64,000 nt of DNA from NCBI GenBank assembly GCA_951406725.2, contig OX597816.1, positions 4,092,001 to 4,156,000 of the forward strand, in the 5' to 3' direction. The notes below the pieces were generated by a model that saw nothing but the letters and a program-made list of their open reading frames with translations, made no database searches and was not told where the DNA came from. The stretch is from Octopus vulgaris. Its lineage: Eukaryota. The stretch's first letter is position 1. Every line of letters starts with the position of its first letter. Shown in pieces: positions 14,012-48,826 of the stretch. The translations under genes were made by a program, and so were the position numbers.

Positions 14012-14240
14012 GGAGTAAACACATAAATGTGAAACAAGGTGGAGAAAAGAGAACTCAAATACCAGAGGTAGAGTAATATGCTTTATATAAAAGCAGTAGA
14101 AATATAACAAAAGCTGTTACTCAGAGTTTCAAGTTCCCGTTCGTCGGACAGTTCTGCTAAAAAAAAAAACTGTCCGACGAACGGGAACGTGAAACTCTGA
14201 GTAACAGCTCTTGTTATATTTCTGCTGCTTTTAAATAAAG
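14010..14240. mobile_element. Fold-back element with one hammerhead motif on each strand, between (TA)n tracts
   Basis: Arms ~14081-14153 and 14168-14240; further copies at 8368-8490 and 52695-52822. Confidence 0.8.
14170..14207 (+). ncRNA. Minimal hammerhead motif with variant core CCGACGA (mirror copy 14114-14151, minus strand)
   Basis: ctgt CCGACGA acg-ggaa-cgt GAAA ctc-t-gag TA acag; all three stems pair. Confidence 0.75.
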
Positions 14241-29372: not shown

Positions 29373-30173
29373 GAAGACACAATTAACATAACTAACAACA
29401 CCGATATTTCAGTCTAATCATGTAATTTGGGAAAAATAAAATTCGTTCTATCACGTTTTTGATGAGATTAATTACATTCAGCAGAAAATGTAATTAGACA
29501 TTGTAAAAACTGATTGTAAAATGGAAGTCGACTTCAGTGGAATTTGAACTTAGAACGTAAAGACGGACCAAATGCTAATGATTTTCCCCTCATCCCGCAA
29601 CCTGACAGGAATATGTAAATTAAGAAAAACTCCTTTAATGAATATGGTGAAAAGATTATTCAGGAACTATATTTGTTTTGTGTTATCTTCAGTGTCAACA
29701 ATATAAGCTGCTTCAGAAAGGGATCTTTGAGAGGTTTCTTTTTTATTATCTGTTAGGAAGGAATAAAAGCTTCAAACAGCTGAATGCCTGAGGAATTTTA
29801 TGCATGCATCCAAATAACAATTTAGAATTACGGTTAAAGATGAATTTCCGACCATTTGTAAATTTCATTTACATTTTATCTTACCCCCCTCTCTCTCGCT
29901 CTTTCTCTCTCCATTTCATATTTGCCTTATTTTTCGGTAATGTTCATCTTTTCTATATTTCTTCCTCCGTCGCAGTTTATTTCCCTTCACAAAGTAATTG
30001 TATCTCACTCTCTTGCTGTCTGTCTGTCGGTCTCTCTCTCTCTTTCTCCCTGTTTTTCTTTGTACACCTATTCTATCCTTTCCAGATAACCGTACACCTA
30101 TTTCGTGTTTCTGTCACTCGAAATATATTGTGTCATAATGATTGATTTAAGCATACACACACACATACACACG

Positions 30174-30231
<58 letters not shown>

Positions 30232-30770
30232 GGCATACTGCCATTCTAGTTCAGAAAAGAACGTTCCGAAAATAAATGCTGCAAAATATTTATCTACGTT
30301 TTACCCACGTAGCTATTTACATCTTTGTCCTGTCCTGCACCAAACTGGTTCTTTCTTATCGGAGAAAGAAGAATGGGTGACATCAACGCCGGTACCAAGA
30401 GAATTGAGAAGCAACTGAAATGAAATAACGCCTACGAGAATGAAACTTAGATTTTGCAATCTAACAATTCATAAATTTAAGAATAATTTTCACGGTTTCT
30501 TACGCTTCTAACACAAGTAAATCTCAATCCCACATTGGTTTTTTTTATAAACCTTGGAAATTTCACTGACCGTAGTGGAATTCAGCATATGTAGAAGATA
30601 GCATCAAAGTTTATCACTTCCATTTTACAATCAGATTTTACGATATCTAATTGCATTTTCTGCTGAATGTAATTAATCTCATCGAAAACATGAAAGGAGG
30701 AATTTTATTTTTCCCAAATTTCATGCTGAGACTGCAAATATCGGTGTTGTTAGTTGTGTTGTGTTTTCGA
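29373..30770. repeat. ~150-bp inverted repeat pair (29373-29529 and 30616-30770)
   Basis: gatgagattaattacattcagcagaaaatg pairs with cattttctgctgaatgtaattaatctcatc. Confidence 0.85.
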
Positions 30771-31864: not shown

Positions 31865-32525
31865 AATAAATAATATATTTCTAAATATCTCAGAGAAATT
31901 TATGCAGCAACAGCGAGATAAAGTGATAGGATGTTGTCAACTTAATGTGACAGTCCCATAAAAGGGAAGAATGCTATTGTTATTTAGCCCTAGGAAACAC
32001 CGTTTCCTGTTGGACTTGACACATCTCCTATGTCCTTATGTTTTCAAAATGGGAACAAGCACCTCCACCCAGCAAAGCCAGCATCCAGAGACTAGTTTCA
32101 GAGTCATTGCTCCTCATCAGTCTGGAGTAGCATGGCTTGATAGCTGTCGATGCCTTTGAAAACATATATATTTCAAGTGGAATACATTCACTGATTATTG
32201 AAAATAGAAATAATACATTTCTAAATCTCTCGGAGAGATTTATGCAGTAGCAGCACGATAAAGTGATAGTTTGTTGTCAACTTAATGTGACAGTCCCATG
32301 AAAGGGAAGAATACTACTGTTATTTAACCCCAGGAATCACAGTTTCCTGTTGGACTTGACACTTTTCCTGTGTCCTTATGTTTTCAAAGTGGAGATAACG
32401 TAAGGACACAGGAAATGTGTCAAGTCCAACAGGAAACGGTGTTTCCTAGGGCTAAATAACAGTAGCATTCTTCCCTTTCATGGGACTGTCACATTAAGTT
32501 GACAACATTCTATCACTTTATTGCT
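31865..32525. mobile_element. Penelope-pLTR-like structure: direct repeat, HHR, direct repeat, inverted repeat
   Basis: A (31865-32055), A' (32205-32395) and inverted A'' (32401-32523). Confidence 0.8.
32085..32125 (-). ncRNA. Type I hammerhead ribozyme, perfect core
   Basis: ccaga CTGATGA ggag-caatga-ctct GAAA ctag TC tctgg; GUC cleavage triplet; palindromic stem III ACTAGT. Confidence 0.88.
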
Positions 32526-33571: not shown

Positions 33572-33666
<95 letters not shown>

Positions 33667-33676
33667 AAGAAAAGAA

Positions 33677-33711
<35 letters not shown>

Positions 33712-33791
33712 AGAAGAAGAAGAAGAAGAAGAAGAAGAAGAAGAAGAAGAAGAAGAAGAAGAAGAAGAAGAAGAAGAAGAAGAAAAAGAAG
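33559..33791. repeat. Compound (AAT)n-(AAG)n microsatellite
   Basis: Direct reading. Confidence 0.95.
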
Positions 33792-33794
33792 ACT

Positions 33795-34395
33795 GAGAAG
33801 GAATCTATTCACAGACACGACAGAGTTGGGACCTATATACACTGGAAGCTATGCCAACATTATGGAATAACAACAGAAAAAAGATGGTATAGGCACACAC
33901 CAGAAAAGGTCACAGAAAACAAGAAAGCAACCATACTATGGGATATGCCAATACATACAGAGAGAGAAATTAAGGCCAACATGCCAGATATAGTTGTCAG
34001 AGATCACCAAGAAAAGAAGGCTTTTTAATCGATGGATCAATACGAGCAGATGACAACGTGTCTTCTAAAAGAAATGGAGAAACTTTCAAAATACAAAGAC
34101 CTGGAAATAGAGGTAACCAGAATGTGGAATCTAAAAACAGAAACAATCCCTATCATAGCAGGTGCATTAGGCATGATAAAAAAATATTCAGACAAATACA
34201 TAACAAAAACATCAGGATTTACAAACACATATAACATACAGAAAATTGCACTACTAGGCACTGCACACATTCTACGCAGAACACTTTCCATACAATAACC
34301 ATCTGAGCATCACAACAAATCACAGCACATACCCAAGGCACACAGAGCTGCGCTCGGTAGTGAAGTGAAAGCACGCTATAAAAATAAAACTACTG
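33795..34395 (+). mobile_element. 5'-truncated R4/Dong-type non-LTR retrotransposon (REL endonuclease C-terminus and 3' UTR), frameshifted
   Basis: HRHDRVGTYIHWKLCQHYG..ILWDMPIHT..PDIVV..FLID..KEMEKLSKYKDL..PIIAGALG; (AAT)n follows the 3' end. Confidence 0.88.
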
Positions 34396-47999: not shown

Positions 48000-48540
48000 T
48001 AAGTAAACTTAAATAAACTTAGATGTGTTTCGACCAAAGATTGGTCCAGGTCATGTCTAACTTAATAGCACCAGATAGGATTATTCGAATCCTGTTTAAG
48101 TCAAGTTTTGTTTATGGTCCATTCAAGTAGTGAGTTTTTGTTGGGTGAGTTGTATCCAATTATGGGTGGCTTATCTGGTATTCTTTGAAGGAATCTATCC
48201 AGACTCCATTTAAAGTTGATGGGATCCTTTTCCACTTTGATCTCTTTCGGGACAATGTTAAATAGGGCAGGGCCTGTTGAGGAAAAGAAATTATATTGCA
48301 GTGTACATGTATGCTGTGATCTTGAATTTGGCAGGGGACGTATGGCTCGTGGTCCCAGTCTTGGATGAACCTTGAAGCTAATGTTCAGGTCGTTTGGGCA
48401 AAGTTGGCGGTATATTCTCCACATTGTACAAATGATGTACCGCTCACGGCGATGCTGGAGAGAGTAAAGTTTCAAGGCTTTAGGGCGATCCCAATAATCG
48501 AGAGCAGCCATGCCTTCAATTCGTTTAGTGAGTGCCCTAA
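48000..48540 (-). mobile_element. 5'-truncated CR1-group LINE ORF2 C-terminus and 3' UTR
   Basis: RALTKRIEGMAALDYWDRPKALKLYSLQHRRERY..LFNIVPKEI..FKWSLDRFLQRIPDKP. Confidence 0.85.
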
Positions 48541-48826
48541 AGCCAATATGCTGATAACAGACTATTAAATCGTCAATTTCCACATATAATCTACTCACTA
48601 CAAAAATCGAAGAACTTAAGTCCGGCAAGTTGGCCGTTAGAATCTTTAAAATTCGTTATCTCTATATTGAATCAATTTCGGAATTAATCTCATAAAAGAA
48701 TTATTCCTCTTCAGTAGAGTTTACGAGAGAATATAAATAAGATACTTACATGCACCCATGGAAAAAACGAGTAGATCATATGTGGAAATTGACGATTTAA
48801 TAGTCTGTTATCAGCATATTGGCTTT
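48540..48826. mobile_element. Element with ~57-bp terminal inverted arms enclosing a hammerhead
   Basis: agccaatatgctgataacagactattaaatcgtcaatttccacatat and its reverse complement at ~48768-48825. Confidence 0.8.
48660..48719 (-). ncRNA. Type I hammerhead ribozyme, perfect core, extended stem II
   Basis: ctcta CTGAAGA ggaataattcttttatgagattaattcc GAAA ttga-t-tcaa TA tagag. Confidence 0.88.

What the first reader, a model, noticed from the sequence alone, without database searches (positions are those of the whole stretch)
32085..32125. Perfect-core minimal hammerhead within a tandem-plus-inverted repeat
Seen on the minus strand: (t)ccaga CTGATGA ggag-caatga-ctct GAAA ctag TC tctgg(a). It has a 5-6-bp stem I, an intact core, a GUC site (cut between 32090 and 32089) and a self-complementary stem III. 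It lies between two ~190-bp direct repeats, and the second folds back on an inverted copy (32401-32523) as a ~120-bp hairpin. This partial-tandem plus inverted layout is established for Penelope pLTRs. The ~340-bp repeat period suggests a retrozyme-sized monomer (inference).
Basis: partly seen in the sequence, partly recalled or inferred. Interest (0 to 1): 0.75.

Follow-up and report, generated by a model that had tools for sequence, protein, structure and literature searches.

The report
Locally spreading octopus hammerhead retrozyme
This is one copy of a non-coding 340-base repeat with a predicted self-cutting RNA motif, likely pasted around the octopus genome by Penelope-type jumping genes (a known kind of element), but its closest relatives all sit within 5 million bases and some neighbouring copies share the same internal seam, which suggests copying on the spot rather than from a free RNA circle.

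Summary
The hammerhead and the tandem-plus-inverted layout are real. The locus is 1.55 units of a non-coding ~340-348-nt repeat plus a head-to-head arm; about 1,600 search candidates exist in this octopus genome. Insertions show the Penelope signature: 9-15-bp target duplications, inversions, and two fixed 3' ends 50 nt apart, one of each per inverted insertion (20 of 21; 14 of 14). The ribozyme has canonical type I geometry, not the minimal form; cleavage is untested, and this copy has only one. No autonomous partner was found. The scan already noted Penelope-type spread, an snRNA-type promoter and Tx1-like targeting for these repeats in this genome, and local spread in a ray genome. New here: all 8 insertions carrying this copy's 8-bp deletion lie within 5 Mb of a 2,800-Mb genome, with unrelated flanks; three pairs 0.7-1.3 Mb apart share an inversion junction; and arms of one insertion carry different subfamily states. 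This fits templates tethered at the donor locus better than a monomer circle. Gene conversion between neighbours is the main rival.

The parts
31868..32521 (.). Whole insertion: 1.55 units on the minus strand plus a head-to-head inverted arm; no TSD seen
31868..32207 (-). Complete 340-nt unit (family majority 348 nt), no ORF, 38% GC
32083..32126 (-). Type I hammerhead, predicted cut 32090/32089, palindromic helix III, U1.7 and loop-2 terminal A
32066..32146 (-). Extended helix I with internal loop, predicted
31868..31917 (-). 50-nt tail between the two fixed 3' ends (unit positions 290 and 340), containing a palindrome; this arm ends at the tail end
32208..32400 (-). Upstream 5'-truncated unit (partial tandem, pLTR-like), 89-92% identical
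32401..32521 (+). Inverted arm ending at the tail-less 3' end (unit 290)
32187..32195 (-). Motif shared with U1 snRNA gene promoters (PSE-like, inferred); 58 nt before the LINE target in most copies, 50 nt here
32151..32152 (-). Site of the 8-bp deletion that marks the local subfamily
32134..32145 (-). 12-nt site duplicated by target-specific LINE insertions in other copies; empty here, with one subfamily-specific change

Best explanation
This is one copy of a dispersed, non-coding ~340-nt repeat family with a predicted hammerhead ribozyme, likely mobilised in trans by a Penelope-like reverse transcriptase-endonuclease, and likely copied from templates still held at the donor locus rather than from a free monomer circle. 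Shown: the unit, the family, TSDs, inversions, two fixed 3' ends paired one per side, the 5-Mb cluster, shared junctions in neighbours and mixed states within one insertion. Inferred steps: (1) RNA polymerase reads through a genomic copy; the unit's own snRNA-type promoter points outward from the junction, so RNA spanning a junction must come from outside; (2) the Penelope protein binds this nascent RNA, nicks both strands of nearby AT-rich DNA 9-15 nt apart and starts DNA synthesis internally, at unit 340 for one strand and at unit 290 for the other; (3) synthesis runs through the ribozyme, through unit borders and sometimes through an older inversion junction, giving partial tandems and head-to-head arms within about 1 Mb of the donor. 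The hammerhead would cut slowly or as a dimer and would not define the integration template.
For: TSD score >=8 in 24 of 47 loci vs 11 of 376 mismatched controls; inversion in 31 of 47. One tail end plus one tail-less end in 20 of 21 classifiable insertions (p 1e-5; 9 more of 30 had a non-standard end) and 14 of 14 (5 more of 19). Same design in sister families. Deletion pattern: 10 matches = 8 insertions, all C3:1.98-6.98 Mb, control 0; second marker 8 of 8 vs 0 of 53; flanks unrelated; TSDs in 5 of 8; 9 of 162 family-wide core matches fall in this interval, about 0.3 expected. The three reciprocal, high-identity (89-96%) shared junctions are all among 37 near pairs of 1,830. The two arms of L004 differ at 7 states shared with L006. 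18 of 43 arms cross the predicted cut and 0 start within 3 nt of it. Internal initiation at two sites, extension of both strands and dispensable HHR cleavage are shown in vitro for PAc (PMC11167929); trans-mobilisation by pLTRs with introns kept is reported in PMC3846280.
Against: No autonomous element with a matching 3' end was found. Outside the cluster no copy had its nearest relative within 5 Mb (0 of 62), and the near-pair excess of rare variants is p 0.002-0.004 overall but only p 0.07 in the fresh set. Sister families S and W show no clear local signal. The cluster is not a supported clade (4 changes). Looser junction matches include 5 distant pairs against 2 near, and the junction of L033/L313 lies in an internal inverted repeat that is a hot spot. 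The tail is 50 nt against 30-40 in described PLEs. The window copy has no TSD. Core conservation over background is not significant in the two unbiased sets (p 0.09, 0.24).
Confidence: 0.62

Rival explanations
1. Same family and same Penelope-type integration, but the local pattern comes from ectopic gene conversion: head-to-head palindromes break and are repaired from a neighbouring copy, which transfers markers and junctions while each copy keeps its flanks and TSD.
For: Explains shared junctions, mosaic arms and equal divergence within and between insertions (0.086 and 0.086). All inverted insertions share both outer ends, so conversion has homology on both sides. In L036 both arms share a variant and a 6-bp deletion.
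Against: At least 9 copies lie in 5 Mb where about 3 are expected, and 9 of 162 core matches against 0.3; conversion does not add copies. L037 has the shared junction, a TSD and a non-standard far end, as a truncated copy would.
Confidence: 0.18
2. Classical retrozyme cycle: tandem arrays give monomers by double self-cleavage, monomers are circularised and reverse transcribed round the circle into more-than-unit copies.
For: Unit size and GC match mussel and axolotl retrozymes (PMC7229834); arms cross the cut site and the unit border freely; a two-ribozyme tandem exists inside the cluster (L006).
Against: A sense monomer circle cannot carry an inversion junction or give arms and tandem units with different subfamily states (7 states in L004, 8 in L006), and a diffusible circle should not insert locally. 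Only 1 of about 91 insertions has two ribozymes one period apart.
Confidence: 0.12
3. The repeats are truncated ends (pLTRs) of an autonomous Penelope-like element that was not sampled.
For: The layout equals that of Pen2a/Pen3a insertions (PMC3846280); only the best-scoring GIY-YIG matches were sampled (150 of 6,136 candidates), dominated by Neptune-type families.
Against: The exact tail-to-start junction recurs in many independent insertions, including 8 of 23 chosen by the 3' end only; the only shared sequence found upstream was a LINE with its own TSD; 220 family loci hold no PLE ORF continuous with the unit.
Confidence: 0.06
4. A DNA transposon-like foldback element or a chance motif.
For: Long terminal inverted repeats; local hopping is typical of DNA transposons (recalled).
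Against: Variable 5' truncation, variable TSD length and partial tandems; 0 strict hits in 200 shuffles; compensatory changes across three families.
Confidence: 0.02

Closest known systems
Metazoan non-LTR retrozymes (PMC7229834: coral, mussel 350-390 nt, axolotl; bioRxiv 10.64898/2026.07.22.740005)
   Same: Non-coding 150-450-nt unit, GC under 45%, canonical type I hammerhead with short palindromic helix III, U.U at the base of helix II in most copies as in HHR_Amex2, long TSDs, autonomous PLEs in the same genome.
   Different: Almost all copies are 0.5-1.6 units with inversions, not arrays; circles and cleavage are not shown; a promoter-like motif is present although PMC7761336 says retrozymes seem to lack promoters; the evidence points away from a monomer-circle template.
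EN+ Penelope-like element insertions (PMC8557442; Pen2a/Pen3a in PMC3846280; PAc in PMC11167929)
   Same: Partial tandem, inverted 5' copy, tail on one end only, 8-15-bp TSD, AT-rich targets, two fixed start sites.
   Different: No ORF; tail 50 nt; canonical rather than min-HHR; local spread with inherited junctions is not in the passages read.
Non-autonomous Chlamys elements such as MRC1 (PMC8557442 passage)
   Same: Non-coding, form pLTRs and head-to-tail copies.
   Different: Those resemble their autonomous partner at the 3' end and mostly lack an HHR; no partner was found here.
Target-specific Tx1-clade LINEs (Tx1 in Tx1D, Keno in U2, Tx1-Mar; PMC4494074 passages), for the LINE seen in relatives
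   Same: Fixed site in another repeat, TSD, tandem arrays at the site.
   Different: Target is 25 nt upstream of a hammerhead core; clade not tested by tree here; the window copy is not occupied.

Membership tests
Type I hammerhead ribozyme | Conserved core, three helices, NUH site | tested here: met
   stems I-III and the 3-8 pair (C-G vs U-A) change together across families U, S, W
Type I hammerhead ribozyme | Self-cleavage | not testable with these tools
   needs in vitro assay; 8 of 9 Xenopus dimers did not cleave (bioRxiv 2026.07.22.740005)
min-HHR of PLEs (PMC4209133) | No helix III, helix II 7-8 bp, helix I 4-5 bp, no loop-loop contact | tested here: not met
   helix I 6 bp plus extension, helix II 3-4 bp, palindromic III, U1.7 and loop-2 A kept in 3 of 3 families parsed
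Non-LTR retrozyme | Non-coding repeat of 150-450 nt, low GC, with type I HHR | tested here: met
Non-LTR retrozyme | Two or more consecutive units with complete HHR (definition of 'active' in bioRxiv 2026.07.22.740005) | tested here: not met
   not met by this copy; met by 1 of about 91 insertions (L006)
Non-LTR retrozyme | Expressed as circular monomer | not testable with these tools
   only contigs were available
Non-autonomous PLE-mobilised element | Partial tandem, inverted copy, one-sided tail, TSD | tested here: met
   TSD absent at this copy
Non-autonomous PLE-mobilised element | 3' end homologous to an autonomous PLE of the host | tested here: inconclusive
   no match in 70 PLE stretches; Penelope/Poseidon-type families not sampled
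Autonomous Penelope-like element | RT plus GIY-YIG ORF between pLTRs | tested here: not met
   no such ORF in the window or joined to the unit in 220 loci

The most novel reading that the evidence does not exclude
Penelope-type machinery copies whole head-to-head insertions, old junction included, to new sites within about 1 Mb of the donor, using locus-tethered read-through RNA (or the donor DNA) and the two fixed start sites to define both termini. Animal retrozymes would then spread by stepping-stone local retrotransposition and not by rolling-circle copying of circular RNA, which would also explain intron retention and the one-sided tail of PLEs.
Probability: 0.45. Interest if true: 0.78.

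Novelty: new member of a known kind. Interest (0 to 1): 0.55.

Why it matters
How Penelope-like elements and animal retrozymes are copied is open: PMC7229834 proposes circular templates, PMC11167929 shows internal initiation in vitro, and PMC8557442 calls intron retention unexplained. This family offers a genomic test. Local spread and inherited junctions, if they are true insertions, exclude a free monomer circle as template and point to nascent RNA or donor DNA. It is testable now by comparing orthologous sites in related octopus genomes. The element itself is a known kind, and its Penelope signature, promoter motif and LINE parasite were already noted by this scan.

Tried and rejected
Rfam found no hammerhead. 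Search for an autonomous partner: GIY-YIG family search and 40 longer stretches gave Neptune-type elements (intact 781-aa frames; RVT_1 and GIY-YIG) with their own U3-A8 or C3-G8 hammerhead-like motifs but no match to the unit; PLE fragments near 5 family loci are separate insertions where checked (2 of 5). A loose-end motif from reads led to one chance junction. Expression: no RNA holder on record was listed; contigs of runs guessed to be RNA carry family pieces but cannot show strand, ends, level or this copy. Simple twin priming on contiguous RNA was rejected for this copy because the long arm runs past position 290 twice. Segmental duplication of the cluster was rejected: 300-nt flanks share only one 35-nt out-of-register match. 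The 2-kb zinc-knuckle insert as a 'long form' of the element was rejected: it has its own TSD and tandem arrays and also sits in sister families. 18 junction matches of L026 were dropped as an artefact of the tail palindrome; L028 was left out of the end count as complex. A tool-based pair count on alignment A1 was not obtained; stems were read from family majorities (family V did not parse). Folding energy does not single out the motif. Two papers were not held.

Full report
Observation. The motif and repeats are as described; details are in the observation check. The window is C3:4,092,001-4,156,000 of a 2,800-Mb assembly; named protein hits place the host in or near Octopus.

Anatomy. On the minus strand the locus reads: upstream partial unit (32400-32208), complete unit (32207-31868), with an inverted arm (32401-32521) at the 5' side. 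There is one ribozyme, no ORF and no visible TSD. The hammerhead has a 6-bp helix I continued by an internal loop and further pairing, a short helix II and a palindromic helix III. PMC4209133 (parts 1-2 of 4 read) calls this the canonical metazoan type, which needs a dimer to cleave well; the min-HHR lacks helix III. Position 10.1 is U in 53, A in 13, G in 7 and C in 2 of 75 copies; this copy has G.

Family. A search with the ribozyme-bearing part gave 1,575 candidates, 40 scored; a 31-nt core pattern matches 162 times, control 0. Homologous families exist: S (360 nt, 2,887 candidates, 95-97% alike, in TA repeats), W (1,440 candidates) and V. Majorities of U, S and W keep all three helices with different sequences, S has the U3-A8 core, and all keep U1.7 and a loop-2 terminal A, the pair proposed as the tertiary contact (PMC11875169, passages). 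The core is intact in 11 of 14 and 7 of 15 copies in two sets not chosen by it, not significantly above background.

Insertion signature. TSD score >=8 in 24 of 47 loci against 11 of 376 controls; 31 of 47 inverted. 3' ends pile up at unit 281-293 and 330-12. Among insertions with two 3' ends, 20 of 30 and 14 of 19 have one of each, 1 has two tail ends, none has two tail-less ends, and the rest have a non-standard end. This is the PLE pattern (PMC8557442, PMC3846280, passages), and PMC11167929 (parts 1-2 of 4) ties the tail to two internal start sites. The genome holds intact Neptune-type PLEs, but none sampled matches the unit. The mobiliser is therefore inferred.

Promoter and LINE. A motif found 57-59 nt before 20 of 20 U1 genes lies 58 nt before a fixed site in 16 of 29 family copies and 50 nt in this subfamily. 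That site, 25 nt upstream of the core, is the target of LINEs: 29 of 30 loci found with their zinc-knuckle protein have a junction there or at the matching site of a sister family (counted by eye), with 12-bp duplications and tandem arrays; RT-bearing relatives occur in such arrays. I found the targeting myself; the promoter reading came from earlier notes of this scan and I tested only the motif and its spacing. An snRNA-type promoter in newt satellite 2 is recalled and could not be retrieved; PMC7761336 (passages) says retrozymes seem to lack promoters.

Local spread. This copy has an 8-bp deletion and a G>T change. A pattern for the deletion matches 10 times, in 8 insertions, all within C3:1.98-6.98 Mb and on both strands. 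The second marker is in 8 of 8 cluster copies and 0 of 53 others. Flanks are unrelated and 5 of 8 have their own TSD. Copy density is raised: 9 of 162 core matches against about 0.3 expected. Further markers are shared by L003, L004 and L006, which lie within 1.2 Mb. The tree clusters the label (0 of 500 shuffles as low) but does not give one supported clade. Outside the cluster the signal is weak: 0 of 62 nearest relatives within 5 Mb; near pairs share more rare variants (0.84 vs 0.27, p 0.002 overall; p 0.07 among 20 fresh loci that I chose for being near others); S and W show nothing clear.

Template. Of 92 loci, 61 have an inversion junction (1,830 pairs, 37 within 2 Mb). Three pairs share a junction reciprocally at 89-96% identity, and all are near: L033/L313 (1.3 Mb; whole element, both ends, different TSDs, no promoter motif inside), L036/L037 (0.7 Mb) and L324/L325 (0.9 Mb). 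Looser matches are 2 near and 5 far. Internal promoters point away from a junction, so a template spanning it must be outside read-through RNA or DNA (inference). Within one insertion, repeated parts are not copies of one monomer: the arms of L004 differ at 7 states shared with L006 (5 also with L003), and the two full units of L006 differ at 8 such states. In the set chosen by the 3' end, 18 of 43 arms cross the predicted cut and none starts there (0.9 expected by chance, so the second figure is weak).

Mechanism and rivals. I commit to trans-mobilisation by a PLE protein using locus-tethered, uncleaved templates and two fixed start sites (0.62). The identity as a PLE-type non-autonomous hammerhead repeat is much firmer (about 0.9) than the template. 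Gene conversion (0.18) explains junction sharing and mosaic arms but not the excess of copies. The monomer circle (0.12) explains unit fidelity but not junction inheritance.

Literature. Searches found no paper on this family, on local spread of PLE-type elements or on LINEs targeting hammerhead repeats. The library lacks most subscription papers and Repbase, and I read no supplements; those of PMC4209133, PMC7229834 and PMC8557442 may list cephalopod elements. Also read: bioRxiv 10.64898/2026.07.22.740005 (parts 1-3 of 5), PMC7229834 (passages, parts 2 and 4 of 6, section 14), PMC4494074 and PMC8869645 (passages). The scan has many notes on sister families and the LINE in this genome, none near this window or matching its sequence, and one on local spread in a ray genome.

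Verdict. A new member of a known kind. Interest 0.55, carried by the local-copying evidence; 0.78 if that holds (probability 0.45).

Noticed in passing
window 14081-14240: A second, unrelated head-to-head pair of hammerhead-like motifs (core CCGACGA, intact at 14174-14203 +) before a TA repeat; relatives in 7 of 342 fetched loci.
   Followed up: partly
window 48665-48714 (-): A third hammerhead-like motif with a long helix II; relatives in 2 of 342 loci.
   Followed up: partly
window 29407-29528 and 30616-30737: 122-nt inverted repeats, 89%, 1,087 nt apart; possible MITE; no relative in other loci fetched.
   Followed up: no
window 33639-34028 (+) and 48101-48655 (-): Fragments that read like LINE reverse-transcriptase C-termini (resemblance recalled).
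   Followed up: no
L177-L182, L213-L254: ORF1-only and RT-bearing LINEs with at least four different 3' ends share the site upstream of the hammerhead; L250 uses a site about 12 nt further on, next to the core.
   Followed up: partly
L203:1260-3017: A unit plus LINE composite with an inversion junction inside the LINE and the usual two outer ends, as if the composite was moved by PLE machinery.
   Followed up: no
L081-L084, L057-L080 3' regions: Abundant intact Neptune-type PLE (781-aa frame, upstream coding-like region, repeated CCAAT/TGACGT-like blocks) with a U3-A8 hammerhead-like motif about 75 nt before its TA target.
   Followed up: partly
L311 (C14 U1 gene) upstream 60 nt: Resembles the promoter part of older family copies beyond the PSE-like motif, hinting at capture of a U1 promoter.
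   Followed up: no
C3:1,914,245: A U1 match lies 65 kb from the first cluster insertion; probably coincidence.
   Followed up: no
window subfamily, 32134-32152: The deletion shortens the promoter-to-target distance and the G>T change alters the LINE target; none of the 8 cluster copies is occupied by the LINE. Possible escape variant, but numbers are too small.
   Followed up: no
L020/L021, L209/L210: Copies duplicated in tandem together with 2.3-kb and 5.7-kb of flank, ordinary local duplications.
   Followed up: no
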